A stretch of 43,854 bases of DNA. It comes from a virus. Position numbers and translations under genes: made by a program. The notes under the pieces are model-generated. The model did not search any database. It worked only from the letters and a program-made list of their open reading frames with translations, and had not been told where the DNA came from. The DNA lies in the IMG/VR virus record IMGVR_UViG_3300012922_000003, positions 1-43,854 of that record; one strand, written 5' to 3'. Of the stretch, positions 23,041-43,854 are shown piece after piece (position 1 is the first letter of the stretch; every line of letters starts with the position of its first letter).

Positions 23041-23589
23041 TTACGGGTAGATGAGTCCGGTTCCGACCGGCCGGACGAACTCGTAGTCGCCGTCCGCCGT
23101 GGTCTTGCCGAATGCGTGTGCAAACGACGCGGCGAGCGCGAATCGCGAACTCACCGCGTAGGATCCGGACAGGTGGGCTTCCGTCCCACGCCAGCGCCGC
23201 ACGCTGCTCTCGCCCTGCCACATCGCGCCCCCACCGATCCCGAGCGAGAACTTCGACTGCACCAGCGGCGGCGGATAGACCAGCAGGTTTGCGCACAGGC
23301 GGACATCGTTGATGTGCCCGTCGTCGCGGGAGAAGGGGAACCCGTGCTCGAGCACCAGGTAGGTCGAGAGCCGCGGGTGCCACGAGTAGGTGAGCGCTCC
23401 GGCGAGCGAGGCCCCCCGCCAGTCAGGGTTCTCGCCCGACTTCGTGAACCACAGTCCGCCAGCCTGCCACGAGAGCGAGGTGCGTTCCTGCCAGTCGAAC
23501 AGCGAGTAGCGCTCCTGCGCCCGGCCTGCGCGCGGGAGCACCGCAGCCAGCAGTAGCGCGAGGATCAGAAAGCGTGCGAATCGGTGCAT
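23041..23589 (-). CDS. Exported beta-barrel outer-membrane-protein-like protein
   Basis: Signal peptide MHRFARFLILALLLAAVLPRAGRAQ. Alternating-hydrophobicity strands (LSGSYAVSSRFALAASFAHAF, FSLGIGGGAMW, TYLVLEHGFPF). ATG preceded by AAGGGGGA. Confidence 0.45.
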   Translation of the reverse strand: MHRFARFLILALLLAAVLPRAGRAQERYSLFDWQERTSLSWQAGGLWFTKSGENPDWRGASLAGALTYSWHPRLSTYLVLEHGFPFSRDDGHINDVRLCANLLVYPPPLVQSKFSLGIGGGAMWQGESSVRRWRGTEAHLSGSYAVSSRFALAASFAHAFGKTTADGDYEFVRPVGTGLIYP

Positions 23590-23598
23590 CGGTCCCCC

Positions 23599-23868: not shown

Positions 23869-23879
23869 GGCACCTCCTC

Positions 23880-24056: not shown

Positions 24057-24082
24057 GGCTACCTCCGGTCAGGGTTGACGGC

Positions 24083-24184
24083 TCAGCGGGACTTCGCGAA
24101 CAAACCGGCTGCACCGAGGATCAGCGCGATCCACAGCAGCGCGTTGCCCAAGTTCCAGCAGACGAAGCGACGGTAGCAGCTCAT
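24083..24184 (-). CDS. 33-aa single-TM peptide
   Basis: The ATG overlaps the stop of 24181..24501 (ATGA). Sequence is MSCYRRFVCWNLGNALLWIALILGAAGLFAKSR. Confidence 0.35.
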   Translation of the reverse strand: MSCYRRFVCWNLGNALLWIALILGAAGLFAKSR

Positions 24185-24501
24185 TTCTTCTTGAGGGCGT
24201 CGTTCACGCGGTCCTCAAGCCTCAGCAGCCCGGTCTGGATGTTGGCACAGTCCTGCACTACGGCGGTGCTCTCGCGGACCACCTGCCCCAGCCGCTCGCG
24301 GTCCTCCTTGACGCTGGCTTCGACCGCCGCCAGCCGGGCGGTGAGCGCGGCGCGCTCCTCGCTCGACTTCCCGAGCGCGGCCTGGGCCTTCTCCAGTTCG
24401 CTCCCGAGTTTCCCCACGCGCCAGTGCGTGACTGCCGCCTGCGCCACGACTCCCGCAACGCCTAGGCCAGCCACAATCCATGCCGGATCGACTTTTTCCA
24501 A
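24181..24501 (-). CDS. i-spanin-like protein (N-terminal TM helix plus coiled coil)
   Basis: 106 aa, TTG start with GAGAGGAAG upstream. AWIVAGLGVAGVVAQAAV is followed by a long charged helix. It lies next to the endolysin. Confidence 0.45.
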   Translation of the reverse strand: MEKVDPAWIVAGLGVAGVVAQAAVTHWRVGKLGSELEKAQAALGKSSEERAALTARLAAVEASVKEDRERLGQVVRESTAVVQDCANIQTGLLRLEDRVNDALKKK

Positions 24502-24566: not shown

Positions 24567-25082
24567 TTACGCCAACTCGTCGAACTGGTCTGCGGCGCGA
24601 TTGAGCCAGCCTGCGGCGAACGTGGCCTGTGACGGTCGGCCAGAGATCAACCGCCCGTAGAAGCGGACGCGCTCCGCGAGGAAGCGCCGCGCCGTCTTGA
24701 GCCCGTCGAGCAGGTTGAGCGTTCCGAGCGTCTGCGGCCCCAGCACGCCGTCCTCGCGAACGCCCAGCACATGCTGGAGCAGCCGCGTTGACACCATCGG
24801 CCCGTGATTTACGGCGGCGTCTACGATGCACGCGCGCAGAACCTCGGAGGCGATGCCGTCGTAGCCTGGCTTGATGATGTAGCGGTTGAGGAGGATCGCG
24901 CGGGCTTCCTCGACGGTCAGCGCTTTCACTTCGTCAGCGGTGGCGATGCGGCCGAGCCTGCGTGAATCTCCGAGCGTGGCGGCGGTGATGCCGAAGTTGG
25001 TGGGGCCGCCCTTGTCGGCGGGGTTGTCCACGAAGCCGCCCTCGCGCTGGAGCACGCGGTCGATCATCTCGGCGTCGGTCAC
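24567..25082 (-). CDS. Endolysin, GH108 lysozyme with a C-terminal peptidoglycan-binding domain
   Basis: 171 aa from the GTG at 25082 (GTGA overlap with the giant gene's stop). LQREGGFVDNPADKGGPTNFGIT is the GH108 signature. The long track ORF extension was rejected. Confidence 0.85.
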   Translation of the reverse strand: MTDAEMIDRVLQREGGFVDNPADKGGPTNFGITAATLGDSRRLGRIATADEVKALTVEEARAILLNRYIIKPGYDGIASEVLRACIVDAAVNHGPMVSTRLLQHVLGVREDGVLGPQTLGTLNLLDGLKTARRFLAERVRFYGRLISGRPSQATFAAGWLNRAADQFDELA

Positions 25083-28000: not shown

Positions 28001-30886
28001 GAAGCGGGCCTGCGCCTCGTTCTTGAGCTTCTCTGCGAGCTTCGCCTCGGCGTGGAAGCGATTGAGCAGCAGTTCGCCGGCCTTGACCTCAGCCTTCGAG
28101 ACCTTCGGGCGCTTGAGCAGGTCCTTGAGCGCCCTAACCGCGCCACTGGCCTTGGCACGCGCCTTCACCGCATGGCCGACCGCGCGCACCATGTAATCGC
28201 TCGCCGCGTCGGGGCTGATGGCGCCAGGCCCCATGTCGGCTTTCGAGAGCAGGTCGAGCTGCTGCGTGCGCTTGAGGACTTCGATATAGAACTCCGTCAC
28301 GCCCTTGAGCACCGGCAGCGACGAGATGCGCCCGTCGGCGAGGCGTGCGAGCCACGAGCGCTGGTGCACCGGCGCGATCCGGTACTCGCGCACCAGTGCT
28401 CCGATGTGAGCACCCGCTGCGGCCGGAAGTCCCTGCTCGCCGAAATACTGGCGGCGCAGTTCGTCGTCGACGTGACCGAGATCGAGCAGTTGCCGCGCCT
28501 TCGCCTCGCTCCCGCCAGCAGCCTGACGCGCCACCTCTCTGAGCGAGAGCCCGCGGTCGGTCAGGCGCTTCACGACGCCAGCCTGCTCAGAGAGCGTGTT
28601 CGGTTTGCCCTGGAAGTTCGAGGTGTCGGCGTAGTTGAGCGCCTGGGCGTAGGTGCCCTCAAACGGTGCCACGGCCACGTCGCGATCCGAGGTCCCGCCG
28701 CGATGGAGTTTGCCCTCCTGGTCGACCCACTCGTGCTGCGCGACGTAGGTGCGATGGTGGCCCGAGAGGACGTACACGCGACCTTCGGGACCGATCTCTC
28801 CCTTGCGGTCCACCCACGTCACGATCGGGTTGCGCCGGCCTTCCTCCTGCGAGTAGCCGCCGTACTTCTCGGCGAGCTGGAGCGCGTGCGCCTCGTCGAT
28901 GACGCCGCTCGGAATGTCGCGCTGCTGGAACGGCTTGTGGAAGTGGAGAGACTGCGCGCGAACGGTCTGGGTCTCGGCGGGCAACGCGGGCTCCGGCGTG
29001 ACTCCTTCACGCAAACCGGGCGCCGACGGTGGAACCGCAGCACCAGGAGGACCCCCTCTCGGTTGAAGTGTGAGCGTAGGTGCCGGAGCCCGCTCCAATG
29101 TCTGTGGTTCGGCCGGGGGCGCGGCGGCCGTTGGGGCGCTAGCCGCCGTCTGGCCGCCTGTCCGCGTGGGTGCCCCCTGCTCGCTCTCGTTCTGCATCAA
29201 CGCGCTCATCTCGCCAGCGCCCTCGGGCACGATGGCCTGGTGGAGCGCAGCCACGTCGCGGAAGTAGAACGGCACCTCCTTGCCGGTTGCGTCCACAATG
29301 GTTACGCGCGTCTGCTGCGGCAGGCCGCTGTATGGGAAGTTGACGGCGCGCACGACCGTGCCAGTGACGACCGACTTCTCCGGTCTGCCGCTGGTTCCAC
29401 CGGGCAGATCGACGAGCATAGTGATCTTCTTACCGCCAAGTGTCTCAAGCAGTTGCGTGCTTGTCTCAAGCGATGCTTGCTGCGAGGCCGGATCGGGCGG
29501 GCCGGGGTCTCGGATGGCGTCGGCGATGGCCTGCACGCCCTTGGCCTGCGCCCGGGCTCGAGATGCGGCTTCGCGCACCTGGGCGTCCGTCGGGTTCTCC
29601 GGCAGCAGAGCGTAGAAGCGGTCCTGAGCCCCCCTGCTGGCCGTCCTGCCATGATCGAGCGGGTTGGGGGCCGTGGAGTCCAGCCCCCGGAGGATTGCCC
29701 GCACGACGCGAATCTGGCCTGCTGGCAGGGCAACCCGTGGCTCGGCCGGAGCCGGAGTGGGCGGCTGCGGCGCGGCGGGGGCGGTCCCCACCTGTGCCGG
29801 GCCAGCTCCCGGCGGCTCCGCAACCCCCTCCGGTGCGCTCCGCTTCGCTCCCCTGCGCACTCCAACGCCGGTCACGGCCGACAGGAGCGCCAGCCCGCCT
29901 GCGCTCTGGGCGGTCTCCTGCCACGACGGCCATTCGATGTTCTCGCCGGTGGCCTTGCGGATGGCGGTCTCGGTGACGGGGGCCGCGGCGCCGAACAGCG
30001 CGCCGGAGGCGACGGCCACGCCGGTCAGTTTAGCCGCCTGCCGAGCCGTGGCGGCGCTCTGCGCTCCGCGGCTCAGCATGTCGAGCCCGGACTTGACCGC
30101 GCGCTCCCCGGCCTGCTTGGGCGTCAGCTTCGAGGCGAGCCCCTCGGCGTAGGTCTCGGCGACGTGGCGCTCGACCCCGGCCGCGAACTCCGGCGCCTGC
30201 TTGGCGATGGCGCGCATGACGGGCGCGGCGACGAAATCGGCAAGCGGGCCGACAGCCGCGGAGGCCAAGGCCATGACACCAGCGCCGACGATCTTCTCTC
30301 GGGCCGTCCCGGGCTGCGCCAGCACCGGCGCTCCGCCAGCCAGAGCGCGGCCGGCAGCCGCCAGCGCCACGCGCGCTGGCAGCGCGGCCGTGACGCCCGC
30401 AGCCGTCAGCCCGTAGCCGACGATGCCGCCAGCGGTCTGAGCGATCTTCCCGGCCGTCCCGGTCGGCGTCTTGGCGAAGCGACCGGCGCGCGCCTGGGCT
30501 TCTGCGAGCGCCCAAAGCCCCGGATTAACGGCAGCGCTCGGGAGCGGAACACCTTCGACGCTCATCGCTGGCAGCGCGCCGAGGAAGCCCGAGGCCGCGC
30601 GCTTGAGGAGTGAGTCAGACTCCTTCGGCGCTGTGGCAGCGGGGGCGGGAGCCGCCGGGGCTGCGGCCGTCGTCTCTGGCGTGGCGGCCTTGGCCCTCTC
30701 GGCTCGGCCGCGCTCCAGCCACTCCGGGAGCTTCGCCGCCATCGCGGAGACCAGCGCACGGCGCTCGGGCGTGCCAGCCGCAGGGGCCGGGCGATTGAGC
30801 CACGCCTGCACGTCGGCGGGGAAGCTGTCCGGCGGGAACGAAGCGCGGGTCTTGGGCCCGATCAGGTCGAGCGCGGTCTCAGCCAT
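25079..30886 (-). CDS. Giant (1935 aa) putative internal/ejected virion protein with a central ParB-like nuclease/HTH domain and hydrophobic segments
   Basis: Longest ORF in the window, located where podoviruses carry internal core proteins. Residues ~645-810 (28457..28954) contain RVYVLSGHHRTYVA (codons verified on the DNA at 28760..28762) followed by LSLREVARQAAGGSEAKARQLLDLG. Gly/Ala-rich hydrophobic stretches occur near both ends. Confidence 0.7.
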   Translation of the reverse strand: MAETALDLIGPKTRASFPPDSFPADVQAWLNRPAPAAGTPERRALVSAMAAKLPEWLERGRAERAKAATPETTAAAPAAPAPAATAPKESDSLLKRAASGFLGALPAMSVEGVPLPSAAVNPGLWALAEAQARAGRFAKTPTGTAGKIAQTAGGIVGYGLTAAGVTAALPARVALAAAGRALAGGAPVLAQPGTAREKIVGAGVMALASAAVGPLADFVAAPVMRAIAKQAPEFAAGVERHVAETYAEGLASKLTPKQAGERAVKSGLDMLSRGAQSAATARQAAKLTGVAVASGALFGAAAPVTETAIRKATGENIEWPSWQETAQSAGGLALLSAVTGVGVRRGAKRSAPEGVAEPPGAGPAQVGTAPAAPQPPTPAPAEPRVALPAGQIRVVRAILRGLDSTAPNPLDHGRTASRGAQDRFYALLPENPTDAQVREAASRARAQAKGVQAIADAIRDPGPPDPASQQASLETSTQLLETLGGKKITMLVDLPGGTSGRPEKSVVTGTVVRAVNFPYSGLPQQTRVTIVDATGKEVPFYFRDVAALHQAIVPEGAGEMSALMQNESEQGAPTRTGGQTAASAPTAAAPPAEPQTLERAPAPTLTLQPRGGPPGAAVPPSAPGLREGVTPEPALPAETQTVRAQSLHFHKPFQQRDIPSGVIDEAHALQLAEKYGGYSQEEGRRNPIVTWVDRKGEIGPEGRVYVLSGHHRTYVAQHEWVDQEGKLHRGGTSDRDVAVAPFEGTYAQALNYADTSNFQGKPNTLSEQAGVVKRLTDRGLSLREVARQAAGGSEAKARQLLDLGHVDDELRRQYFGEQGLPAAAGAHIGALVREYRIAPVHQRSWLARLADGRISSLPVLKGVTEFYIEVLKRTQQLDLLSKADMGPGAISPDAASDYMVRAVGHAVKARAKASGAVRALKDLLKRPKVSKAEVKAGELLLNRFHAEAKLAEKLKNEAQARFLQALQKPGGSLVDAAAEVGRWVDQQLGEWTPADEMPPPVGGSLSAFGVSGLHEALVRGVPRAMQRLWQRIPRAERDLRFVDEHGNTVKRVAVQYEQDAWSDYASSRLMARSGVLATGQDILPPSVRAAHAIFEAQASDYANFYREAAALALGPAGMRYARQYGVGDFEIEKALRGQPHAVPKQFAPMLAKLRQILDVEFMTEAHDLLERGYSHHELPARLENYLPQRAGPVPKNIVEFFGKIRARASLPAAELDELWNRFLEHRVAPEGEAEGFWSAFMRRTNAHVNWMAKNHVVDAINEYLGSEEALRDQNRAALVRTWAETWIARKPGVLHQWVDNGMRWLTFARGIDGTLEVSQEHAAALAGLDLTNREDARLWRTVKPTTGGGASRVPYQHYVYVKEGASIGIPTHDGEPTYHAVGTTPHGGTIYAGPVQPGAEGAMIHASGAPDLRTLFKLKNFLGTKARVLMQREWNVPEAHVREAIAARSRALAMYHNPAASLASYSRSTVRALVGWNPSTITKHTLQNFVTVIPEHGFVNAAQGFTGAVGKFKTNALLREIDRWEASGHLTAEQAEHFRALIPLTAAHFASEALGPRGFEGFSLEETARSGKTRGEAPWWRTPLGPLHAVLSFQRAWDAFAALAHARRLGLDMAAVDRTYTAEDNARMRVLTDLWHSASREPGGTARFVADAMTVTQFRWNGMSQPLWQAGPLGRVFGGLTTWPQSFLRFGVRNVEGAAKSVTAAVTAPLPARPAKGPRLSRYPGAESPLLRAMDERGAPAGVRNSGNAFVRSMTVAGVMLGVAMGAGVNLVIGGVPALFALGVLSWALSQPRNRAAKRALQFTERGSEGFIPYSATGKKTPTVLRAATEVAGGLSRAVEGPIPTAVSEFGSNPAQTVADFARWRFIPGLQALKRGVSSMPEVFDRVPAIYDILGIRSKEVGLTPVERLMYINRTLDPQREDRARRPIHRRRRAA

Positions 30887-33955: not shown

Positions 33956-36069
33956 CGGTCGTACTCCCGGTCTGGCAGCAGCAGACAGTCGAGGTCGAAA
34001 GCGGTGAGCGTGAGATCGGCCGCCACCTGAGCAGCAAGGTTGAGGCGGAAGCGGCGACCCAGCGTGCCGAACGGAACGCCCGCCACCACCGTCACCGGTC
34101 CGTCAGCCGCCCAGTCGCCCACATCCCACTCCAGGTCGTTCGGGTTCGAGCCGACGTCCGCCGCCCAGTCGTTGCCGCTGCCAGCGAGCAGCAGTTGGAG
34201 CGTCACCGCGGCGTCCGCCGGGTCCGGCGTCAGGACTGCGGAGGCTCCGATCACATCGCCCTCGGCATAGACCGCGAGCCGATCAGCCGCCTTCCATGCG
34301 TCCGGCGAGCCGCCATCAAGGAACGGCGTCTCCAGCAGGAAGGAGACGGGATTGCCGCCTGCGCCGCTGGCGGTTTTCTCGTCCTTGAACGAGTCGAAGC
34401 CCGCCCAGCAGTGGTACTCGGAGATCGTGACGACTGGCGAGCCGTTGATCGTGTTGCAGTGCGCGGTGGCGGCGCCAGCGATGGTGAGCGTCACATTCTT
34501 AGCGGTGGCGGTCGCCGGGTTGCTCATTGAGAGGCTGGTGTCGCCGGCTGCGACGACGAACTGGATGATGGTGGCGCCAGGAACACCCGCCCCCGTGATG
34601 CTGGCGCCGCCAGCGATGGCCCCGAACGACGCGCGGTTCAGTGGATCGCAGAACACCATGCTGGCGTTGTTGAAGAGCCCACCGCGCAACTCGATCACGT
34701 CGCGCGCTCGCCAGCCGGTGAAGTGCCACATCTGCCGGAAGCGCGCATCGTAGACCAGCATCTCCTTCGCGTAGGAGTCGCTGCCGATCGGATACCAGCC
34801 GAGCCAGTAGTCGCCCGCGTGATTGACCATCGTGAGCTGGTCGAGCTGTGCGGTGTTGAGCGTGTCGATGTAGTGGCCGATCTGCTCCCAAGCGAACGGC
34901 GAGACGGTGCGACCGTCGAACTTGAAGAGCCCGCCGTCACCCCAGAAGTAGGCGCTGCCACCGATGACCGTCGCCGCGCGCGGACCAGCGCAGCCAGCCT
35001 CGGAGCCACGCGAGGGGTCGGCATAGACCACGCTCGTCAGCGTGTAGCTGTCGGGGTCCACGCCCGAGAGCACATGCACGCTGCGCTTCTTCAGGATCAG
35101 CAGTTGCTCACCGACGACGAGGCACACCTGGATCGTGTCGCCGTCGTCCTTGGCGATCTGAAAGAGGTTGTCGGCGTCGTAGTTGGCGATCCCGGTGGCT
35201 TCGAGGTCGCCGATGGCGTTGCTGGCGTAGAGCCCGGAGCCGGACCAGCCGAACAGCCGCCCGGTGAACGCGCACACGCCATCGAAGTGCGGGGGCTCGC
35301 CGTGCACGCCCTCATCGGCACGGTAGCCGAGCGAAGCGTCGGCCCTGGCGTCGGCGTAGGTGTTGCCGGTGCCGTCGGCGACCCACCAGAATGGCCCGGT
35401 CGCATCGCCGTTCACCTTGCTGCGCTCGAGCGTCCAGCCGAGGTAGTCGGCGCGCGGCACTCCGGGATCGAGCCCGGTCAGGTTGACGGTCTGGTTCGGC
35501 GCCGCGACGGTGCGCTTGGCCGAGACTGGCGAGGTGAGGCTCGAGCCTTTGGCGTAGCGCCAGCGCACGCGGTAGTAGTGGTCGCCCACGTCCACCGCGC
35601 CGCCCACGCTGTCGGCGTTGAAGGTCGGCGCGCTGCCGGGCTTTGGCAGCAGGAGTTCTTTCCAGCCCCCATCGTAGAACAGCGGGACCTTGGCTCCGCC
35701 GCGCTGGGCCACGATCAGCACGCCGTCGAGGTTCGTGTGCGTCCAGATGTCGGAGCCCGCCGGGTGCCCGCTGGGGAGCGTCTGCACCGGATAGGCGGCG
35801 GCCTGCGCCTCGAAGATCAGCGCCGCGGCGCCCACGAACAGCTTGTTGCCGCCGGCCGCGTAGTAGCCCATCAGGCTGTGCGGCTGGTCGGAGAGGATGT
35901 CCGTCGAGATGTCGCGCGTCCCCGGCCGAATGCGGCACGCGCGGTGCGGGCGCCCCAGCAAGTTGTCGGCGCGGTGCAGCCACGTCGGCCTGAGCTTCCG
36001 CTCCGAGACGCCACCGACGATCGCGCCCGAGAAGTCGGACATGCCGAGGTTGAGCGCCGCCGGGCTCAT
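33952..36069 (-). CDS. Large tail structural protein (tubular-B/nozzle-like by size and position)
   Basis: 705-aa beta-rich ORF directly after a ~220-aa gene, matching the podoviral adaptor/nozzle order. Confidence 0.45.
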   Translation of the reverse strand: MSPAALNLGMSDFSGAIVGGVSERKLRPTWLHRADNLLGRPHRACRIRPGTRDISTDILSDQPHSLMGYYAAGGNKLFVGAAALIFEAQAAAYPVQTLPSGHPAGSDIWTHTNLDGVLIVAQRGGAKVPLFYDGGWKELLLPKPGSAPTFNADSVGGAVDVGDHYYRVRWRYAKGSSLTSPVSAKRTVAAPNQTVNLTGLDPGVPRADYLGWTLERSKVNGDATGPFWWVADGTGNTYADARADASLGYRADEGVHGEPPHFDGVCAFTGRLFGWSGSGLYASNAIGDLEATGIANYDADNLFQIAKDDGDTIQVCLVVGEQLLILKKRSVHVLSGVDPDSYTLTSVVYADPSRGSEAGCAGPRAATVIGGSAYFWGDGGLFKFDGRTVSPFAWEQIGHYIDTLNTAQLDQLTMVNHAGDYWLGWYPIGSDSYAKEMLVYDARFRQMWHFTGWRARDVIELRGGLFNNASMVFCDPLNRASFGAIAGGASITGAGVPGATIIQFVVAAGDTSLSMSNPATATAKNVTLTIAGAATAHCNTINGSPVVTISEYHCWAGFDSFKDEKTASGAGGNPVSFLLETPFLDGGSPDAWKAADRLAVYAEGDVIGASAVLTPDPADAAVTLQLLLAGSGNDWAADVGSNPNDLEWDVGDWAADGPVTVVAGVPFGTLGRRFRLNLAAQVAADLTLTAFDLDCLLLPDREYDR

Positions 36070-36734
36070 CGCATCCCCGCCATCGGCGCTCGCGTCGGAC
36101 GAATCGCCGGGCGCCGATCGTCCACGCGGTCCTCCATCTTGTCCTGCAAACCCTCGGCCACGTCAACGATCCACTGCTTGAGCTCGGCGTCGGCCTCCCC
36201 GATGCGGTCGCGGGCGTACTTGGCAGCGATCACCAGCCGACGGATCACGTAGTCCTGGCAGAACTCCGGCAGCGGGAAGATCGCCGAGGGCAGATCGAAG
36301 ATGCGGTCAGGGATGCCGAAGTAGGTCAGGCGCCCGCCCTGGACCACGGTGGTCGTCGGCTTGCCGACGAGGTGGAACCAGTTGCGGCGCGGGAAATATT
36401 CGAGCGGCGGGTCCATCGGCGGATAGAGTCGGTCGGTGCGCGCCGTGAACTCGTCCTCACGCAACTCGTCGAGCTTGAAGAAGGTATTGGCATCTCCGGC
36501 GATGGCCTGCGCTTCGAACTTGGTGATGGCGGTCGCACGCCACGGATAGCCGTAACGGTCGGTCGGGAGGGTGTCGAAAAGTCCCTGGAACTCCAGCACG
36601 TTCGCCTTCTCGCACAACTCTCGCACCGCTTGGTTGTAGAACAGCACCCATTCCACGTCCCGCACGCGCGTGCGGTTCACGTCGCCGATCTTGAGTGCGG
36701 CGTCGGAGATCAGGTAATCGACAGAGAGGCTCAC
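36066..36734 (-). CDS. Tail tubular-A/adaptor-like protein
   Basis: 222 aa from the GTG at 36734 (GTGA overlap). The call rests on position. Confidence 0.35.
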   Translation of the reverse strand: MSLSVDYLISDAALKIGDVNRTRVRDVEWVLFYNQAVRELCEKANVLEFQGLFDTLPTDRYGYPWRATAITKFEAQAIAGDANTFFKLDELREDEFTARTDRLYPPMDPPLEYFPRRNWFHLVGKPTTTVVQGGRLTYFGIPDRIFDLPSAIFPLPEFCQDYVIRRLVIAAKYARDRIGEADAELKQWIVDVAEGLQDKMEDRVDDRRPAIRPTRAPMAGMR

Positions 36735-37504
36735 GCCTGAGTCTCCGCGTAGACCGTGGCTGGCGCGCCTGACTCGGTGTAGGCGGTCGCGATCTGCCAA
36801 GCGTAGGCGCCGTCGAGCTGGGAGAGGTCGACCGGGCCCCACGGGTGGGTCGTGATCGGATCGCGCAACTGAGCGGTCAGCGTGAAGTCCTGCTGAGCGA
36901 GGCCGGTCCTCGTGCTGCGGACTACCGCACCCAAGCCTTCGGAGGTCGCCCAGGTCACGGCGTTCGGGCCGGGCGTGAACCCGAGCGTGGCGAGCCGGAT
37001 CGTCACTCCCGCGCGCGAGAGTCCGTCGAGACCGTTGAAGAGCGTGACCTCGCCAACGAAGCCAGCCGCCGGGAGGAGGAATCCACCCGCGCCGCCGTCA
37101 TTGGGGCTGAGCTGGGCATCGGAGTCGAGGTTGAACCTCCAGTCTCCGGCGCCAGCGTCGTAGCTCACGATGAGGCGGTGCCACGCGCCGTCAGCCTGCA
37201 CGCGGCCGGGGGCCGTCTGCACGCCAACGCCCAGCGGATGTGCCGCCTGCACGCGCCCGCTCGGGCTAATGCCCACGTCCAACAACCGACGCGCACCAGC
37301 GCTGGCGTACTCATGGAAGCTGGCGATGGCGTGGCACTCGTCGGCGCTCGCCAACTGGATCGGCACCGAGTCGAGCCGGAACTCCACCACCCACTCCAGC
37401 GCTCCGAAGGCCGGCAGGCTCGGCGCGTTCATGTACGCGAGCGTCTGCTGCACCATCGCGAAGTAGGGGCGACCGGTCGAGCGCAGCGCGTAGCCGTTAC
37501 TCAT
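36731..37504 (-). CDS. LamG/concanavalin-like jelly-roll protein (tentative)
   Basis: 257 aa from the ATG at 37504 (ATGA overlap). DGAWHRLIVSYDAGAGDWRFNLDSD resembles the LamG core motif. Confidence 0.4.
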   Translation of the reverse strand: MSNGYALRSTGRPYFAMVQQTLAYMNAPSLPAFGALEWVVEFRLDSVPIQLASADECHAIASFHEYASAGARRLLDVGISPSGRVQAAHPLGVGVQTAPGRVQADGAWHRLIVSYDAGAGDWRFNLDSDAQLSPNDGGAGGFLLPAAGFVGEVTLFNGLDGLSRAGVTIRLATLGFTPGPNAVTWATSEGLGAVVRSTRTGLAQQDFTLTAQLRDPITTHPWGPVDLSQLDGAYAWQIATAYTESGAPATVYAETQA

Positions 37505-39480
37505 GGCGTGTCGACGTAGACGAACTCGATCGGCTCGCGGCCACGGATGGCGAACGAGTTGATGTAGTTGATCTTCGCGACGAGGCACTTGAGCTGCCAC
37601 CAGCCCGGGCGGTACTTGATGCCGCTACCGTCGTCGCCGAACTGCCCCATCGGGATCGTGAACACCTCCAGCGGGTAGCGGAAGTTGTGGATGTAGTACG
37701 GCAGGTCGCGCCAGTACCACAGGCCCGTAAGGCGTCCCCAGATGAACTCGTTCTCGAAGTCGTGCGTGGTCTGAAGCGCGGTCGTGACGCCGCCTACCAC
37801 GCGCCCGCGACTGCGCAGGAAGTTCACGGTGCCGAGCCGCGTTGAGCGCGCCGATGAACTCCACGCCGTGAGTGCCTCGGTGCCGGGACCGTAGGCCCAC
37901 GGGTTGCCGCCGACGACGTGGCCGACTCCGGTGCCGGGGGCGGAATAGGCGGTCCCGTCCAGTGCACGCGTGGCTCCCGGAGAACTGTTCTGCTGCTCGC
38001 CGGAGAACACGACATGCGTGACGCCTGCTGCGGCGAGTGCCGTCGCAAGCGAGTCGGGGTCCGGCATCACGCCGCGCGAGTAGTTCGACGGGATGTAGTC
38101 CTCGCCGGCCGTGATGAGCGCAGTGCCGACCTTGGGCGCGAACGGCGAGAGTCGGGCGCCCGCCATGATCGCTCTGATCCCGCAGAAGTAACTCGTGTCC
38201 GAGGCTCCGCAGGTATACGGAGGCCACGAGGCGAACATCGTCCGGCTGCGGAGCAGCCCCACCGCGTCCACTGGCGTCGCGAAGGACGAGTTTCCGGCCG
38301 GAGCACCCGAGACCGTCCCCACGGTGTTCTCGGGGAAGAAGCGCGCCGCCGTGACGCGCTTGAGCCACGCCACTTCGTCGGGGTACGTCGCCGTCGAGTC
38401 GGGGTTGAAGCCGATACTGAGCGGGACGGGCCGACCAAGGTGATCGACGAGACTGTTGAGCGAGTCGGCCATGTCCGTGCTCGGCAGGCCAAGCGCGTAA
38501 CTGCCGTTCGCATCCGGGAACGCCGCCCCAGCTCCGCCACCGGTCGAGCCGCTGCGGCCGCACGCCCGCGTGATGAGCAGGCGAACGCGCAGTTTCTTCC
38601 AGCCCGGCTTCTGCCCGATCAGGACGCCGCCGGAGAGCGAGTCGAGGTGCACGAGCATCGCGGCGCTGAGTGCTGCGTCCCAACTCACGCCAATCGTGCC
38701 GGTGTTCGCGAGCGGCCACGCGCACACGATCGGGTTGTTCACCGACCCCGACGGATCTCCGTAAATCTCGAACGCCGACGCCGAATCCGGTGACGCCGTG
38801 CTGACGCCGAAGCAGTTGGTGCAGTTCTTGGGGCCGGTGACGCCCGTGTCCACGCCAGTACGCTTGCCCTGAAGCACGCGGTAGGTCTTGTTCGTGGGCG
38901 GCGTCGGCGACATTCCGAAGGTGGCCTGGTTGTCCCAGGTGTCGTAGACGATCGAGGTGCCGGGCTTGTAGGCCATGCGCAGGTGCGCGGTGTCGGTGAG
39001 TTCGTTGTTCATGGTGCCAGTCGAGCAAGCCGCGCAGCCGCTCCAAACGGTGAAGCCAACCGCCGTGACCGGGCCAGTTACGAGCGTGGGCTTCTTCGGC
39101 CAGTAATACTGGTGGAACAGCGAGTCTCCGGTGAACCAGCCGGTGATGTTCGTCACCATCGAGCCACCAAACGACCAGCCCATGACCCACACCGCATCGA
39201 AGTTGCGCTTCTCGCCGGGCGTATCGAACGTGGCGTTCCGGGCGCACCACGTCATGTTCTCGAGCACACCGTTATCGTTGGCGACCGACCGGGCCTCCAG
39301 AGTCGTCATGTTGATTCCGAGTTGGTCGGCCAACGCCACATCCATGTCGATCTTGCGGAGGGTTTTCTGCTCCTGACCGACCTGGCTACCCGTCGGGCGG
39401 ATCGCCAGCAAACTGCCAGCAAAGGCAGGCCATGCCAAGACCGCCCCGAAGATCCACGCCCACCACAGACGCGGCTTCAT
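37501..39480 (-). CDS. Exported 659-aa protein of unknown function (Sec signal peptide)
   Basis: N-terminus MKPRLWWAWIFGAVLAWPAFA/GS. Coupled to both neighbours by ATGA overlaps. Rich in Cys, Trp and Asn. Confidence 0.6.
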   Translation of the reverse strand: MKPRLWWAWIFGAVLAWPAFAGSLLAIRPTGSQVGQEQKTLRKIDMDVALADQLGINMTTLEARSVANDNGVLENMTWCARNATFDTPGEKRNFDAVWVMGWSFGGSMVTNITGWFTGDSLFHQYYWPKKPTLVTGPVTAVGFTVWSGCAACSTGTMNNELTDTAHLRMAYKPGTSIVYDTWDNQATFGMSPTPPTNKTYRVLQGKRTGVDTGVTGPKNCTNCFGVSTASPDSASAFEIYGDPSGSVNNPIVCAWPLANTGTIGVSWDAALSAAMLVHLDSLSGGVLIGQKPGWKKLRVRLLITRACGRSGSTGGGAGAAFPDANGSYALGLPSTDMADSLNSLVDHLGRPVPLSIGFNPDSTATYPDEVAWLKRVTAARFFPENTVGTVSGAPAGNSSFATPVDAVGLLRSRTMFASWPPYTCGASDTSYFCGIRAIMAGARLSPFAPKVGTALITAGEDYIPSNYSRGVMPDPDSLATALAAAGVTHVVFSGEQQNSSPGATRALDGTAYSAPGTGVGHVVGGNPWAYGPGTEALTAWSSSARSTRLGTVNFLRSRGRVVGGVTTALQTTHDFENEFIWGRLTGLWYWRDLPYYIHNFRYPLEVFTIPMGQFGDDGSGIKYRPGWWQLKCLVAKINYINSFAIRGREPIEFVYVDTP

Positions 39481-40268
39481 CGGCCACCGAAGAAGTCGAG
39501 GCTCACCGCATACGGCTTCTCCTGCGTACCGACCGCAGGCGCGAACGAGAAGTCGAGGTAGGTGTCGACGTGGCGGACGCCGACCGCGAAGTAGGGCGCA
39601 CCGAAGGTCTGGAACACCTTCCAGATCGTGTGCGAGAACACGTGCGTCGCCAGCCCGAAGCCGGGCACGCTCTGTCCGCAGTTGTCACCGACCCGGGTGT
39701 TCTGCCAGGCAATCGGGATCTCGTCGCGGCACACGACCGAATCATTGCAGGCGGGTTGGCCGAGCGTCCCCACCGTGTCGGAAACTCCCGGGGCTGCTGC
39801 CGTGGTCGTGCCGGAGCGCGGGCCCACCGCCCACAGGCCGCGCGCCGAAGTGTCGCTCCCTGCGTAACTGTTGCCCCACACCTTCATCGCGAACAGCGCC
39901 GACGCCACCGAGTCGCACGTCGCCGCCGTGCCCCTCACCGGGTCGATGTTGATGGTGATGCGCACCGCGATCCAGGTGAGCCCCTGGACCGGATACGCCG
40001 CCGTCGAGTCCATCCAGATTTCCGGCGTCGCGCCGTTGCCGGGGACGTGCCACAGGCGGGTGTTGAGCGCGGGGGACTGAGCGAGTTTGTAGAGGTGCGA
40101 GGGGTTCTGCTCCTGGGTTTTCTGGAAGCCCTCGGGCGTTACCGCGACCGGAGTCCACACCGGACTCACGAGTGTGCCAGAGTTGCCCTGCATGTTGACG
40201 GGCGTTGCAGCAAAAGCGGGCGCCGCCAGCAGCAGCGCCAGAATGATGGTGCCGTACCAGCGGCGCAT
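39477..40268 (-). CDS. Exported 263-aa protein of unknown function (Sec signal peptide)
   Basis: N-terminus MRRWYGTIILALLLAAPAFA/ATP. Beta-rich composition. Confidence 0.6.
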   Translation of the reverse strand: MRRWYGTIILALLLAAPAFAATPVNMQGNSGTLVSPVWTPVAVTPEGFQKTQEQNPSHLYKLAQSPALNTRLWHVPGNGATPEIWMDSTAAYPVQGLTWIAVRITINIDPVRGTAATCDSVASALFAMKVWGNSYAGSDTSARGLWAVGPRSGTTTAAAPGVSDTVGTLGQPACNDSVVCRDEIPIAWQNTRVGDNCGQSVPGFGLATHVFSHTIWKVFQTFGAPYFAVGVRHVDTYLDFSFAPAVGTQEKPYAVSLDFFGGR

Positions 40269-40292
40269 CGCCTTGTCTCCTTCGTCAGACTC

Positions 40293-40832
40293 CTAGTTCG
40301 GATTCACGATCAGACCCGCGTGGGCCGTGCTGCCGGTCCCCGGAGCCGCGACCGTGTTGGTCTTGAGGCACACCCCGAGCACCAGGCCCGTGGTCGTGTT
40401 GCTGGTGATCGAATCGACCGCTCCGGCCGTCGCGGACCCGCCGAGCTTGTTGCCGACGGTGATGGCTCCCGCCACGGTCTTGACGGTCGTGAGACTCCCG
40501 GCTCCAGCCACGAGCCCGACCTTGTTGATGCCGATCGGCTCCAGCGCGACGCCGAGCCACATGACGTTCGTGGTCGCCGACACGCGCAGCCCGGCCAGTG
40601 CGAGCGACTGCGGAAGGTCCGAGGCAGGAGTCGCCCCGGCCGCCGTGGTCTCGAGTCGCGGGAGAACTCCGTTCGTCGAGTCCCAGCGGACGGCTTCCGC
40701 CAGCGTCATTGCCGCAGAGTCGGTGTTCTTGACGTGGTACATCACGCCGACGACCGCCGTCCCGGTCCAGAGGATCGTGCCGTCGGAGCCCCGCACCTGC
40801 ACCTGAGATTCCAATCCAACTGCGATGGGCAA
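40293..40832 (-). CDS. Head decoration/cement-like protein (tentative)
   Basis: 179-aa Gly/Ala/Thr/Val-rich ORF immediately after the capsid gene. TTG start with AAGGGGGGTGA upstream. Confidence 0.35.
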   Translation of the reverse strand: MPIAVGLESQVQVRGSDGTILWTGTAVVGVMYHVKNTDSAAMTLAEAVRWDSTNGVLPRLETTAAGATPASDLPQSLALAGLRVSATTNVMWLGVALEPIGINKVGLVAGAGSLTTVKTVAGAITVGNKLGGSATAGAVDSITSNTTTGLVLGVCLKTNTVAAPGTGSTAHAGLIVNPN

Positions 40833-42738: not shown

Positions 42739-43070
42739 ATCTCCTCAGGGAAGATCGGCTGCGCTCCAGCGTCGGTTCCGAGCGGCTCGGCTCCGGTCGC
42801 GTTCATGTCCATCGGTGACTGCGGCGCGCCCTCTGGCCCGCCCGGCCCCTGCGGCGGCTGCGCGCCGACGCCGATCCCGCCGAGCGCCTGCGCACGCGCC
42901 TGCACCTCATGGAAGAAGGCCGCGAGGATGCGCTGCTCGTTCACGTCGAGCTGGCGGTCGGCGAAGAGCAGCGCGAGCCCCTGCCGCGCCCACTGCTCCA
43001 GACTCAGCGTGGGGCGGTCTGGCGGTGCTTGCGCCGTCGGGCTGACGCCGGTTTCAGGTGCGAGTCCCAT
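42735..43070 (-). CDS. Hypothetical head-module protein
   Basis: 111 aa from the ATG at 43070 (GAGAGGAGA upstream; shares one nucleotide with the upstream TGA). The stop overlaps the scaffold ATG. Confidence 0.45.
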   Translation of the reverse strand: MGLAPETGVSPTAQAPPDRPTLSLEQWARQGLALLFADRQLDVNEQRILAAFFHEVQARAQALGGIGVGAQPPQGPGGPEGAPQSPMDMNATGAEPLGTDAGAQPIFPEEM

Positions 43071-43854
43071 CAGCGTCTCCTCTCGCCGGGGTCTCCGCGT
43101 GGCGGGGAACCGCCAGGGTTGTTGATGTAGCAAGGGAAGTAGACGAGCTTACCGCTGCCATCGTTGGACTCGATGCCGAGGTTCAACAGCCCGGGCGCGG
43201 TGCCGGTCCCGGTCGGCGTAAACGTCAGCGTCACGAAGCCAACCGCCCCAACACCCACCGAGAGCGTGTCCTGTGAAGCGGTGAGCAGCGGCGTCGAACC
43301 ACCGCTTGAGTTCTGAGGCGTCATGTGCGAGACGCTCAAGACGGTGGTGCCGAAGTTGAAGATCCCCACGTCCCAGGTCTGCGCCGAGCCCTCGTCAGTG
43401 AAGTAGGCAGGAGCGCTGAACTGGATCACTGGGTAGCCCGCGAATGGCAGGGCACCGATGTCTCCGCCCGCGAGGTCGTGCGAGCGGGCCTGCGAGGGGG
43501 TGGTGATCGTGGGATCGAAGGTCGCGAAGATCGAGTCGCGGAACCACGGCGACCCGTAGTAACTGGAGTCGTCGCAGCCCACGCACCACTTGGTCGTCCA
43601 GGCGGTGTTGGTGCCGGGGCGCTGTCCGCGGTCTCCGTTCTGCCACTGGAGCAGGATGCTACGGACTCCCACGGTGTCGTTCGGGTAGGAGCAGCCGATG
43701 GCGGTGCCATAGTAGGCGTAGAGGTTGCCCTCGGAGCGCAGATGGGCCGAGTGCGTGGCCTCGGTGACGAAGAACGTAGAGTCCGCGACGCGGATTGAAA
43801 CGAAGAACGCGCTCCGGTAGTTGCTCTGGTTGGGGCACGAGTTGGTCGGCGCGC
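43070..43854 (-). CDS. C-terminal part of the wrap-around secreted beta-helix protein (continues from 1..1309)
   Basis: The frame is open from the window end down to the stop at 43070..43072. Junction reading ...THSAHLRSE-GNLYAYYGTAIGCSYPNDTVGVRSILLQ was verified codon by codon. The C-terminal ~90 aa (VGFVTLTFTPTGTGTAPGLLNLGIESND) look like an Ig/ASH-type beta-sandwich. Confidence 0.75.
   Translation of the reverse strand, partial: APTNSCPNQSNYRSAFFVSIRVADSTFFVTEATHSAHLRSEGNLYAYYGTAIGCSYPNDTVGVRSILLQWQNGDRGQRPGTNTAWTTKWCVGCDDSSYYGSPWFRDSIFATFDPTITTPSQARSHDLAGGDIGALPFAGYPVIQFSAPAYFTDEGSAQTWDVGIFNFGTTVLSVSHMTPQNSSGGSTPLLTASQDTLSVGVGAVGFVTLTFTPTGTGTAPGLLNLGIESNDGSGKLVYFPCYINNPGGSPPRGDPGERRR
43732..43854. 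repeat. Terminal direct repeat, copy 2 (identical to 1..123)
   Basis: Read directly from the sequence. Confidence 0.9.

What the first reader, a model, noticed from the sequence alone, without database searches (positions are those of the whole stretch)
37501..40268. Two Sec-signal-peptide proteins wedged between head and tail genes
Both ORFs start with textbook cleavable signal peptides (MRRWYGTIILALLLAAPAFA/ATP and MKPRLWWAWIFGAVLAWPAFA/GS). They are translationally coupled by ATGA overlaps into the late structural operon, between the decoration-like gene and the LamG/tail genes. Virion parts are assembled in the cytoplasm, so export signals here are unexpected. With the beta-helix protein (1309..wrap..43070) and the OMP-like protein (23041..23589), the late operon encodes four exported proteins. 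This looks like a phage-encoded envelope or exopolysaccharide-remodelling set rather than virion components, and I recognise no family for either protein.
Basis: partly seen in the sequence, partly recalled or inferred. Interest (0 to 1): 0.75.

Follow-up and report, generated by a model that had tools for sequence, protein, structure and literature searches.

The report
Exported protein pair in phage late operon
Two adjacent late genes of an uncultured phage encode proteins with conserved export signals; the same gene pair recurs in at least ten other uncultured phages, belongs to no described family, and most likely makes a secreted accessory complex rather than a part of the virus particle.

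Summary
SP1 (39477-40268, 263 aa) and SP2 (37501-39480, 659 aa) are real minus-strand genes. They are joined by ATGA overlaps, and each starts with a classic Sec/signal-peptidase-I signal ending A-F-A.

SP2 has relatives: 86 clusters in an exhaustive search, about 30% identical and 640-700 aa long. By my heuristic, 70 of 72 aligned members keep a signal peptide, and the Ala residues at -3 and -1 of the cleavage site are among the best conserved columns.

In all 11 loci examined, every one a phage, an SP1-like gene of 259-309 aa (full length in ten loci, each with a signal peptide) lies directly upstream of the SP2-like gene. In eight loci the pair sits just before the endolysin, and in four of these a third signal-peptide protein follows. 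In the window and one relative the pair fills a hypervariable slot between the cement and adaptor genes.

Neither protein matches Pfam, PHROGs, NCBIfam, PADLOC, PDB or any cultured phage. The SP2 model is confident and two-domain alpha/beta. SP1 looks like a jelly-roll, at low confidence.

Best reading: an exchangeable, non-virion, periplasm-matured pair, probably acting on an envelope glycan. Export is well supported. The activity is only inferred.

The parts
40277..40283 (-). Shine-Dalgarno sequence GAAGGAG, 8 nt upstream of the SP1 start, inside the 24-nt spacer after the cement gene stop (40293-40295)
   Evidence: Sequence read
39477..40268 (-). SP1 gene, 263 aa (about 243 aa mature). All-beta protein and member of the SP1-like family that always precedes SP2-like genes. 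The family has a conserved C-terminal DLVGWR-type motif (DFFGGR here).
   Evidence: GC3 0.87; homology network; model (pLDDT 55, pTM 0.60, eight long strands); weak jelly-roll matches
40209..40268 (-). SP1 signal peptide, aa 1-20: MRR / WYGTIILALLLAAP / AFA, predicted cleavage before ATP
   Evidence: signal peptides in all ten full-length SP1-like proteins
39477..39480 (-). ATGA overlap: SP1 stop TGA and SP2 start ATG (translational coupling)
   Evidence: stop/start overlaps at this junction in 8 of 11 loci (coordinates)
37501..39480 (-). SP2 gene, 659 aa (about 638 aa mature). Member of an unnamed family of at least 86 clusters.
   Evidence: (GC3 0.86); AlphaFold2 model pLDDT 82.8, pTM 0.90
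39418..39480 (-). SP2 signal peptide, aa 1-21: MKPR / LWWAWIFGAVLAWP / AFA, predicted cleavage before GS. The first beta-strand of the mature protein starts 1-2 residues later.
   Evidence: 70 of 72 homologues; A19 85% and A21 93% conserved
38596..39417 (-). SP2 N-terminal domain (aa about 22-295): three-layer alpha/beta fold. Conserved C152 (CSTG), CxxC at 220/223, D224, D232, D280, S281.
   Evidence: Secondary structure; weak Foldseek matches to ThuA-like 4jqs (probability 0.92, E=0.025) and flavodoxin- or caspase-like folds; conservation
37504..38595 (-). SP2 C-terminal domain (aa about 296-659): about seven alternating beta/alpha units, barrel-like. Conserved D336, D339, S340, D361, S362, D405 (invariant), G408, R411, R413, D428, D461, D476, N641 and the Cys424-x8-Cys433 loop.
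   Evidence: only weak structural matches (2qv5 YibQ-type deacetylase E=0.12; class II aldolase barrel)
37501..37504 (-). ATGA overlap: SP2 stop and start of the next gene (g257, MSNGY...)
40293..40832 (-). Upstream flank of the slot: cement/decoration-like head protein, conserved in all relatives
   Evidence: PF09956 E=1.3e-4, below the gathering score; homologues in L003-L009, L016, L020
36731..37504 (-). Downstream flank: g257, conserved with L016 and L020 directly upstream of the adaptor. No family hit, so the LamG assignment is not verified.
36066..36734 (-). Head-tail adaptor (g222); marks the start of the tail module
   Evidence: The L016 homologue carries PF24175 SU10_adaptor; homologues in L004 and L007

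Best explanation
SP1 and SP2 form an exchangeable accessory cassette, not virion parts. They are transcribed with the late genes and made in a fixed ratio through the ATGA overlap. The Sec system exports them, signal peptidase I cuts them after A-F-A, and they mature in the periplasm of a Gram-negative host, probably as a complex. SP1 would be a beta-sandwich partner and SP2 the enzyme, built from an alpha/beta domain plus a beta/alpha barrel-like domain with a conserved Asp/Ser/Arg-rich surface. The most likely target is a host-specific envelope glycan (O-antigen, capsule or exopolysaccharide). It could be attacked while it crosses the periplasm, or after lysis releases the enzyme, so that progeny do not stick to the dying cell, its debris or its matrix. 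Shown here: the genes, the coupling, the conserved signal peptides and AXA site, the conserved pairing, the phage-only contexts seen so far, and replacement of the pair in close relatives. Inferred: actual export, complex formation, disulfides, enzymatic activity, a glycan substrate, and the benefit to the phage.
For: Export:
- n/h/c signal peptides in both proteins and in 70 of 72 SP2 homologues.
- Positions -3 and -1 of the cleavage site are 85% and 93% conserved.
- All ten full-length SP1-like proteins have signal peptides.
- The mature SP2 chain starts right at the first beta-strand.
- Short-range Cys pairs recur (CxxC, Cx4C, Cx8C), which fits disulfide loops.

Diderm host:
- The window endolysin (24567-25082) is GH108 plus PG_binding_3. 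Every host named in the output summary of its 730 phage relatives is Gram-negative.
- The named phage relatives of the capsid protein (Myxococcus, Brucella, Rhizobium, Microcystis, Stenotrophomonas, Bradyrhizobium) also infect Gram-negative hosts.

One functional unit:
- SP1-like lies immediately upstream of SP2-like in 11 of 11 loci.
- Stop/start overlaps occur at this junction in 8 of 11.

Not core virion:
- The pair is absent from relatives with 70-74% identical capsid protein. Their slot holds unrelated genes.
- No tail or fibre family or fold matches.
- The window keeps conserved adaptor, nozzle and fibre-like genes downstream.

Glycan hint:
- In four loci a third signal-peptide protein follows the pair, and a fifth short contig is cut off inside such a gene. 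Three of the five hit Pfam Beta_helix or fn3.
- The same slot in relative L006 holds a signal-peptide Beta_helix protein (E=1.7e-8).
- SP2 diverges fast (about 27% identity even in the collinear phage L016), as expected for host-surface-specific proteins.
- A periplasmic beta-helix lyase can destroy a capsule polymer in transit (VexL, PMC6003464).
Against: - No catalytic family, motif or significant structural match was found for SP2 or SP1, so 'enzyme' and 'glycan' are inference.
- The weak fold hits (E of 0.01 or worse) are not significant.
- The SP1 model is of low confidence (pLDDT 55).
- Signal peptides were judged with a home-made heuristic plus conservation, not with SignalP.
- Late expression leaves little time to clear surface glycan already in place.
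- The positions of the pair (after the last tail gene, or in a host-range slot) are also where fibres and spikes are encoded.
- SP2 family members vary in Cys count, with 37 of 72 even and 35 odd. This gives no clean disulfide signature.
Confidence: 0.45

Rival explanations
1. They are virion hardware (fibre, spike or decoration). Either the N-terminal hydrophobic segment is not used for export, or the proteins mature in the periplasm and attach to particles only at lysis.
For: The pair sits where receptor-binding genes usually lie: after the J-like gene of about 1000 aa and before the lysis genes in eight loci, and in a hypervariable slot next to PKD- and MG4-domain proteins in relatives. Other signal-peptide proteins in the same slot show fibre-like modular exchange, with conserved ends and a swapped centre. 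SP1 may be a jelly-roll, a fold common in fibre tips.
Against: The AXA cleavage site is among the best conserved columns, so the N-terminus is very probably removed outside the cytoplasm, where tailed-phage particles assemble. There is no homology or fold match to any tail, fibre or spike protein. SP2 is a globular alpha/beta protein, not a fibre or beta-helix. Collinear relatives do without the pair.
Confidence: 0.12
2. They are a lysis or egress accessory: exported enzymes that weaken an outer envelope layer (outer membrane links, S-layer, sheath or capsule) to complete release, working alongside the endolysin, holin and spanin.
For: In eight of 11 loci the pair, with or without a third exported protein, lies directly upstream of the endolysin. 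In L018 the SP2-like gene overlaps the endolysin start by 4 nt. Exported endolysins with cleavable signals are known (review PMC6116005).
Against: In the window and L016 the pair is far from the lysis genes. The window already has a GH108 endolysin, holin-like membrane proteins, a TM plus coiled-coil protein and a small lipobox ORF that could be spanins. No peptidoglycan- or lipid-hydrolase signature was found.
Confidence: 0.15
3. They protect the infected cell or lysogen by non-enzymatic means, masking a receptor or blocking DNA entry in the periplasm (superinfection exclusion).
For: Phage-encoded exported proteins next to tail genes have precedents in T5 Llp, Cor and lambda Lom (own knowledge). 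The pair is exchangeable cargo at module junctions. Several carrier phages have repressor-like HTH and ERF genes, which suggests they are temperate.
Against: The known examples are small lipoproteins or membrane proteins, not a pair of 243 plus 638 aa. No separate promoter or terminator flanks the pair beyond chance. It is coupled to late structural genes, so expression from a prophage is unlikely. The many conserved Asp/Ser/Arg positions at strand ends look more like an active site than a binding surface.
Confidence: 0.1
4. They are a two-subunit exported toxin or effector aimed at other organisms and released by lysis, like Shiga toxin.
For: Two adjacent signal-peptide genes sit in the late region just before the lysis genes in most loci. 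This is the same layout as stxA/stxB (own knowledge).
Against: No similarity to any toxin family or fold was found. The larger subunit lacks known toxin catalytic motifs. The frequent third beta-helix/fn3 protein points to carbohydrate substrates.
Confidence: 0.06

Closest known systems
Shiga-toxin genes stxA/stxB of lambdoid phages (own knowledge)
   Same: Two adjacent genes, each with a Sec signal peptide, in the phage late transcript next to the lysis genes. The products assemble in the periplasm and leave the cell when the phage lyses it. This is the closest match in operating logic.
   Different: No sequence or fold similarity. The sizes are very different (263 and 659 aa against about 315 and 89 aa). 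In the window the pair lies between head and tail genes, not at the lysis cassette. Nothing suggests a toxin.
Exported accessory proteins near tail genes: lambda Lom and Bor, T5 Llp, phi80/N15 Cor (own knowledge)
   Same: Phage-encoded exported proteins, not part of the particle, inserted at module junctions near tail or host-range genes and variable between relatives.
   Different: Those are single small outer-membrane proteins or lipoproteins, often with their own promoter and expressed from the prophage. Here there is a large soluble-type pair with no lipobox and no separate promoter or terminator, translationally coupled to late genes.
Periplasmic or secreted bacterial glycan depolymerases with tailspike-like fold: VexL (PMC6003464) and WceF (PMC7949094)
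   Same: Exported enzymes that cut a surface polysaccharide. VexL shows that a periplasmic enzyme can reach capsule polymer in transit. The third signal-peptide proteins next to the pair in other phages hit Pfam Beta_helix.
   Different: VexL and WceF are chromosomal beta-helix proteins. SP1 and SP2 are not beta-helices and share no detectable homology with them.
Virion-borne phage depolymerases (tailspikes and fibres)
   Same: Genomic position, fast divergence and replacement between close relatives.
   Different: Tailspikes have an N-terminal particle-binding domain and no signal peptide. SP1 and SP2 have conserved cleavable signals and no matching fold.
Sec-exported and SAR endolysins (review PMC6116005)
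   Same: Phage late proteins that use the host Sec system to reach the periplasm.
   Different: No muralytic domain in SP1 or SP2. A separate conventional GH108 or Hydrolase_2 endolysin is present in the window and, among the ten related loci, in six.
ThuA-like / class I glutamine-amidotransferase-like fold and YibQ-type 'divergent polysaccharide deacetylase' barrels
   Same: The best, but weak, structural resemblances of the two SP2 domains (4jqs probability 0.92, E=0.025; 2qv5 E=0.12).
   Different: Not significant. There is no sequence signal even with family consensus sequences, and no recognisable catalytic motifs.

Membership tests
Sec-type cleavable signal peptide (signal peptidase I substrate) | Positively charged n-region, 10-15 residue hydrophobic h-region, and small residues at -3/-1 (AXA) | tested here: met
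   SP1 is MRR/14 hydrophobic/AFA and SP2 is MKPR/14 hydrophobic/AFA. The heuristic is positive for 70 of 72 homologues. No SignalP run was possible.
Sec-type cleavable signal peptide (signal peptidase I substrate) | The feature is kept in divergent homologues, so it is functional and not a chance hydrophobic start | tested here: met
   A19 is 85% and A21 is 93% conserved in a family with 20% mean column identity. All ten full-length SP1-like proteins have it.
Sec-type cleavable signal peptide (signal peptidase I substrate) | Demonstrated export and cleavage | not testable with these tools
   Needs PhoA/BlaM fusions, fractionation and N-terminal sequencing.
Lipoprotein (signal peptidase II) or Tat substrate | Lipobox with Cys at +1, or a conserved S/T-R-R-x-F-L-K motif with a long, weakly hydrophobic h-region | tested here: not met
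   No Cys at +1 in SP1 or SP2. The twin Arg is not conserved, since many homologues start MKR, MKK or MRL. The signals are short (17-21 aa) and strongly hydrophobic.
Phage tail fibre, tailspike or decoration protein | Homology or fold match to a known virion protein family | tested here: not met
   No Pfam or PHROG hit for SP1, SP2 or any of the 72 SP2 relatives. No tblastn hit in 50,697 phage records. Foldseek against BFVD and PDB gave nothing at E<0.001.
Phage tail fibre, tailspike or decoration protein | Presence in purified particles | not testable with these tools
   The phage is uncultured, so virion proteomics would be needed.
Moron (autonomous accessory gene, Lom/Bor type) | Absent from close relatives and inserted at a module junction | tested here: met
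   Relatives L004, L006, L007, L008 and L020 have other genes between the cement and adaptor genes. Elsewhere the pair lies at the tail/lysis junction.
Moron (autonomous accessory gene, Lom/Bor type) | Own promoter and terminator | tested here: not met
   No promoter-like or terminator-like site flanks the pair on the minus strand beyond shuffled expectation, and the hits lie inside coding sequence. Junctions are a 24-nt spacer and two ATGA overlaps. The scan covers sigma-70-type sites only.
Carbohydrate esterase or hydrolase beta/alpha barrel (CE4/NodB, YibQ type) | Significant fold or sequence match and the family's catalytic motifs | tested here: inconclusive
   About seven beta/alpha units in the model, with a weak 2qv5 match at E=0.12. 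No Pfam signal even with the family consensus. Conserved Asp/Ser/Arg positions exist but match no known motif.
ThuA-like / class I glutamine-amidotransferase-like domain (SP2 N-domain) | Fold match | tested here: inconclusive
   4jqs: probability 0.92, E=0.025, TM 0.44 on the target. No PF06283 hit.
Jelly-roll beta-sandwich (SP1) | Eight-stranded jelly-roll topology in a confident model | tested here: inconclusive
   The model has pLDDT 55 and pTM 0.60, with eight long strands. Nearly all of the listed Foldseek hits are jelly-rolls, but at E of 0.012 or worse and TM of 0.47 or lower. A classical outer-membrane barrel is unlikely, because no family member ends in an aromatic residue.
Spanin, holin or endolysin (lysis proteins) | Muralytic domain, or a small TM or lipoprotein architecture | tested here: not met
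   Neither protein has such a domain. The window has a separate GH108 endolysin and small membrane or lipobox ORFs.
Known anti-phage defence proteins | Match to a PADLOC model | tested here: not met
   No meaningful hit for SP1, SP2 or three homologues.

The most novel reading that the evidence does not exclude
SP1 and SP2, together with the exported beta-helix proteins found beside them elsewhere, are host-recognition or depolymerase hardware of tailed phages that must mature in the periplasm and is picked up by particles only at lysis. That would make part of virion assembly extracytoplasmic.
Probability: 0.07. Interest if true: 0.9.

Novelty: new variant of a known kind. Interest (0 to 1): 0.6.

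Why it matters
Tailed phages are thought to export very few late proteins: some endolysins, spanins, and a few small exclusion proteins or toxins. This finding shows a large, conserved, translationally coupled pair of exported proteins. It recurs in at least two unrelated phage architectures (podovirus-like and siphovirus-like) and belongs to no described family. No cultured phage has it.

If the pair is a free, periplasm-matured, receptor-destroying or matrix-degrading complex, it would add a new class of phage function at the cell envelope. It would also be a new source of glycan-active enzymes, and it would show that 'signal peptide in the structural operon' can be a real, selectable trait and not an annotation error. 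The confident SP2 model has no close structural relative, which makes it a worthwhile target for structure and function work.

Tried and rejected
Searches that found nothing:
- Pfam, PHROGs, NCBIfam and PADLOC scans of SP1, SP2 and neighbouring genes; Pfam and PHROGs scans of all 72 SP2 relatives; a Pfam scan of family consensus sequences.
- PDB sequence and profile searches.
- blastn and tblastn against cultured phages, with SP1, SP2 and three other family members as queries.
- Word-indexed protein searches returned only the query or one known relative. The exhaustive HMMER search was the one that found the family.
- Foldseek of both models against PDB, and of the SP2 model against BFVD, gave nothing at E<0.001.
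- Scans of species genomes and JGI metagenome contigs with one degenerate SP2 motif found no relative. This is one motif only, so it does not prove absence. The full alignment was too diverse to scan with.

Ideas rejected:
- The window's 656-aa signal-peptide protein as the relocated third member of the cassette. A tiny-database BLAST gave E=0.002-0.005, but hhalign probability is 2%, and there is no Pfam beta-helix hit and no similarity to L006's beta-helix protein.
- SP2 related to the window's GHL15-like protein, or SP1 related to g257.
- SP1 as a classical outer-membrane beta-barrel, because the C-terminal residue is never aromatic.
- Host inference from the only genome hit. That contig is binned as 'Clavibacter' but has 57% GC and looks like a binned phage contig, so it is unreliable.
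- A twin-arginine (Tat) signal, because the motif is not conserved.
- A caspase-like Cys-His protease reading of the N-domain, because no His in that domain reaches 80% conservation.

Full report
1. Observation

SP1 is 39477-40268 (263 aa) and SP2 is 37501-39480 (659 aa). Their third-position GC is 0.87 and 0.86, within the 0.81-0.92 range of the surrounding late genes. An independent gene caller called the same two genes on the public contig.

The junctions were read directly from the sequence:
- The cement gene ends in TAG. A 24-nt spacer follows, holding GAAGGAG 8 nt before the SP1 ATG.
- The SP1 stop and SP2 start overlap as ATGA.
- The SP2 stop overlaps the ATG of the next gene (g257) in the same way.

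No promoter-like or terminator-like site beyond shuffled expectation flanks the pair, so it belongs to the late transcript.

SP1 begins MRR-WYGTIILALLLAAP-AFA|ATP and SP2 begins MKPR-LWWAWIFGAVLAWP-AFA|GS. Each has a positive n-region, a 14-residue hydrophobic core and Ala at -3/-1. Neither has a lipobox Cys.

2. Surroundings

The window is a near-complete, circularly assembled phage genome. The window is 43,854 nt; the public copies are 43,723 and 43,872 nt.

In the direction of transcription the late operon reads:
- terminase, carrying an insertion with a LAGLIDADG hit;
- P22-type portal;
- a 656-aa signal-peptide protein;
- scaffold;
- major capsid protein (phrog_9953, E=7e-29);
- cement-like protein (PF09956, weak);
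- SP1, SP2 and g257;
- adaptor (its L016 homologue hits PF24175 SU10_adaptor);
- a 705-aa Hc3/nozzle-like protein and fibre-like small proteins;
- a 1935-aa protein;
- a GH108 plus PG_binding_3 endolysin at 24567-25082 and small membrane proteins.

The capsid protein is distantly related to those of Myxococcus phage Mx9, the Brucella Tb group, and Rhizobium, Microcystis, Stenotrophomonas and Bradyrhizobium phages. The endolysin has 730 relatives, and every host named in the output summary is Gram-negative. The host is therefore almost certainly diderm, and a Sec signal would deliver a protein to the periplasm.

3. The pair is cargo in a hypervariable slot

Eight IMG/VR contigs share the head module, with capsid protein 67-74% identical (85% over the 128 residues present on the truncated contig L010). 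In those that extend past the cement gene, the stretch up to the adaptor and nozzle genes differs completely:
- L004 has about 8 kb of other genes.
- L007 has about 9 kb of other genes.
- L008 has three tandem paralogues of about 150 aa.
- L020 has a 454-aa protein with no signal peptide.

None of these has SP1 or SP2. Several do carry other signal-peptide proteins in the slot. L006 has a 999-aa protein that hits Pfam Beta_helix at E=1.7e-8. L004 and L007 carry related proteins of 280 and 664 aa whose N- and C-terminal segments of about 110 aa are conserved and whose centres differ.

A more distant collinear phage, L016 (capsid protein 42% identical), has an SP1-like and an SP2-like gene in exactly the same place, followed by g257 and adaptor homologues.

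4. SP2 has a family, and the export signal is its most constant feature

Word-indexed searches found only the query. The exhaustive HMMER search found 86 cluster representatives at E<=1e-3, 55 at E<=1e-10 and 22 at E<=1e-30. Most are 640-700 aa, match end to end, and are about 30% identical.

In a 72-sequence alignment with 20% mean column identity:
- 70 members start with an n/h/c signal peptide by my heuristic.
- The two Ala residues at -3 and -1 are conserved in 85% and 93% of sequences.
- The mature chain begins one or two residues before the first beta-strand of the model.

A hydrophobic start that arose by chance would not survive this much divergence. I take export and cleavage to be strongly supported, though not demonstrated. 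The twin Arg is not conserved and the signals are short and very hydrophobic, so the route is Sec and not Tat.

5. SP1-SP2 is a conserved gene pair found only in phage contexts so far

I retrieved ten further loci carrying an SP2 homologue.

- In all 11 loci, counting the window, a gene for a 259-309 aa protein lies directly upstream of the SP2-like gene. On one short contig this gene is cut off at its start.
- The stop and start overlap in 8 of the 11.
- These upstream proteins form a weak but connected homology network with SP1. Examples are SP1 against L018 at 8e-10, SP1 against L012 at 7e-8, and L012 against L014 at 4e-27.
- All ten full-length ones start with a signal peptide, and most end in a DLVGWR-like motif.
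- Every locus is phage-like, carrying tape measure and J-like genes, endolysins, ERF, DnaB, methylases or anti-defence genes.

Eight loci are siphovirus-like. In these the pair lies after the last large tail gene. In seven of them it is immediately upstream of the endolysin or an endolysin-like gene (Pfam GH108 or Hydrolase_2 in six). In four of those a third signal-peptide protein of 664-965 aa sits between the pair and the endolysin. A short contig (L011) ends inside a similar third gene. Three of these five third proteins hit Pfam Beta_helix and/or fn3.

No cultured phage has a detectable homologue of SP1, SP2 or three other family members. No Pfam or PHROG model matches any of the 72 relatives. 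One-motif scans of 185,579 species genomes and of JGI metagenome contigs found nothing, which is weak negative evidence.

6. Structure

With the 72-sequence alignment, AlphaFold2 gives a confident SP2 model (pLDDT 82.8, pTM 0.90) with two domains:
- an N-terminal three-layer alpha/beta domain (about aa 22-295);
- a C-terminal domain of about seven alternating beta/alpha units (about aa 296-659).

Foldseek finds no match at E<0.001 in PDB or BFVD. The best resemblances are:
- a ThuA-like protein (4jqs; probability 0.92, E=0.025);
- flavodoxin- and caspase-like sandwiches;
- a YibQ-type 'divergent polysaccharide deacetylase' (2qv5, E=0.12);
- a class II aldolase barrel.

The conserved positions are mostly Asp, Ser, Arg and Gly, and by the secondary-structure map they fall near strand ends and loops. 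They are D224, D232, D280, S281, D336, D339, S340, D361, S362, invariant D405, G408, R411, R413, D428, D461, D476 and N641. This looks like an active or ligand-binding site, but it matches no motif I can name.

Short-range Cys pairs recur in the family (CxxC, Cx4C, Cx8C), together with a highly conserved Cys in CSTG. This is compatible with disulfide loops in an exported protein. It is not proof, because members with even and odd Cys counts are about equally common.

SP1 could be modelled with only eight sequences (pLDDT 55, pTM 0.60). The model has eight long strands. Its weak Foldseek hits are nearly all jelly-rolls, such as picornavirus and polyomavirus capsid proteins and Eph ligand-binding domains, at E of 0.012 or worse. 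I take this only as 'probably a beta-sandwich'. A classical outer-membrane barrel is unlikely, because no family member ends in an aromatic residue.

7. Mechanism

The best-supported account has four steps:
- The pair is made late and in a fixed ratio.
- It is exported by Sec and cleaved after AFA.
- It folds in the periplasm, probably as a complex of a beta-sandwich subunit and an enzymatic subunit.
- It is not built into particles, because particles assemble in the cytoplasm and collinear relatives do without it.

Its home is always a junction used for host-interaction or accessory genes, and its sequence diverges fast: only about 27% identity between the window and the collinear L016, against 42% for the capsid protein. 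Its frequent neighbours are exported beta-helix/fn3 proteins, the fold typical of polysaccharide depolymerases.

I therefore favour a host-specific envelope glycan as the target. It could be degraded or modified in transit through the periplasm. The bacterial lyase VexL does this to Vi capsule (PMC6003464), and WceF is another exported tailspike-like glycanase (PMC7949094). Alternatively the enzyme could act after release by lysis, as Shiga toxin is released (own knowledge).

The likely benefit is that progeny are not trapped on the dying cell, its debris or its matrix. Steps shown: genes, coupling, conserved signals, conserved pairing, phage-only contexts, replaceability. Steps inferred: export itself, the complex, disulfides, catalysis, the substrate and the benefit.

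8. Rivals

- Virion fibre or spike, including attachment to particles after lysis. The position and the modular exchange seen in the slot support it. The conserved cleavage site, the globular alpha/beta fold and the lack of any fibre homology argue against it.
- Lysis or egress accessory. Eight loci place the pair next to the endolysin. The window and L016 do not, and the window has a conventional lysis set.
- Non-enzymatic exclusion or receptor masking. The size, the late coupling and the active-site-like conservation argue against it.
- Exported toxin in the Stx layout. No toxin signal was found.

The window does encode further proteins with signal-peptide-like N-termini:
- the 656-aa protein spanning the window ends (MTRPRWWLVICSALLLFASALPAHA|TDYY);
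- the 182-aa protein at 23041-23589;
- a 46-aa lipobox ORF at 22613-22753.

I could not verify that the 656-aa protein is a beta-helix, nor that it is related to the third proteins of other cassettes. The 182-aa protein lies among the lysis genes. A single four-protein 'remodelling set' is therefore not established.

10. Novelty and limits

Exported phage accessory proteins are a known kind: Lom, Bor, Llp, Cor, Stx and Sec-type endolysins. This large, conserved, coupled pair, with unnamed families and a confident fold that has no close relative, is a new variant of that kind.

Limits:
- No SignalP run was possible.
- The SP1 model is poor, and all fold matches are non-significant.
- The eleven contexts were chosen partly for contig length.
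- The host is unknown.
- No experiment was done.

Noticed in passing
window 4159-7140 (-): The large terminase carries an in-frame insertion of about 350 aa (roughly aa 334-683). It is absent from all eight relatives, whose flanking segments are contiguous. The product has a LAGLIDADG_3 hit, so this is probably an intein or homing-endonuclease insertion.
   Followed up: partly
window 1-1309 and 43070-43854 (-), i.e. L002:4441-6411: A 656-aa protein with a clear signal peptide (…ALPAHA|TDYYVSATG) lies between the portal and scaffold genes. Relatives L003-L010 and L016 have no such gene there.
   Followed up: partly
window 24567-25082 (-): The endolysin (GH108 plus PG_binding_3, E=7e-21) is hidden inside a longer spurious ORF (24567-25985) that overlaps the 1935-aa gene. 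It is 51% identical to the endolysin that directly follows the SP2-like gene in L018.
   Followed up: yes
window 22613-24501 (-): Probable lysis cassette after the endolysin. It holds a 106-aa protein with an N-terminal TM segment and coiled coil (i-spanin-like or holin-like), a 33-aa TM peptide, a holin-like ORF of about 90 aa with three TM segments inside 23599-24114, the 182-aa signal-peptide protein (23041-23589), and a 46-aa ORF with a lipobox (IAAGC, 22613-22753) that could be an o-spanin.
   Followed up: no
window 16006-17115 (-): A 369-aa protein in the early/replication region hits Pfam GHL15 (hypothetical glycosyl-hydrolase-like family 15, E=1.2e-7). This is a second possible carbohydrate-active gene in the phage. 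It is not related to SP2 by hhalign.
   Followed up: partly
window ends (about the last and first 130 nt): The window (43,854 nt) is about 130 nt longer than the Logan copy of the contig (43,723 nt). Reading a gene across the junction adds 41 aa. This looks like terminal redundancy from a circular assembly.
   Followed up: partly
L004:14968-15810 and L007:15220-17214: Two signal-peptide proteins occupy the same hypervariable slot in relatives. They share 61-63% identical N- and C-terminal segments of about 110 aa but have different centres (280 against 664 aa). This is modular exchange of the kind seen in fibres, yet with an export signal.
   Followed up: partly
L008:12206-13588: In another relative the slot holds three tandem paralogues of about 150 aa (…FDVIRGTV.GTGT…HGGTPNIN…).
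   Followed up: no
L020 (CAZGMF010000015.1): A 25-kb contig binned in a MAG labelled 'uncultured Clavibacter sp.' carries the same head-tail module (capsid protein 45% identical) at 57% GC. It is probably a phage contig swept into the bin, so it is not reliable host evidence.
   Followed up: partly
window 25079-30886 (-): A 1935-aa protein with no cysteine at all lies directly upstream of the endolysin. It is presumably an internal or ejection protein and was not analysed.
   Followed up: no
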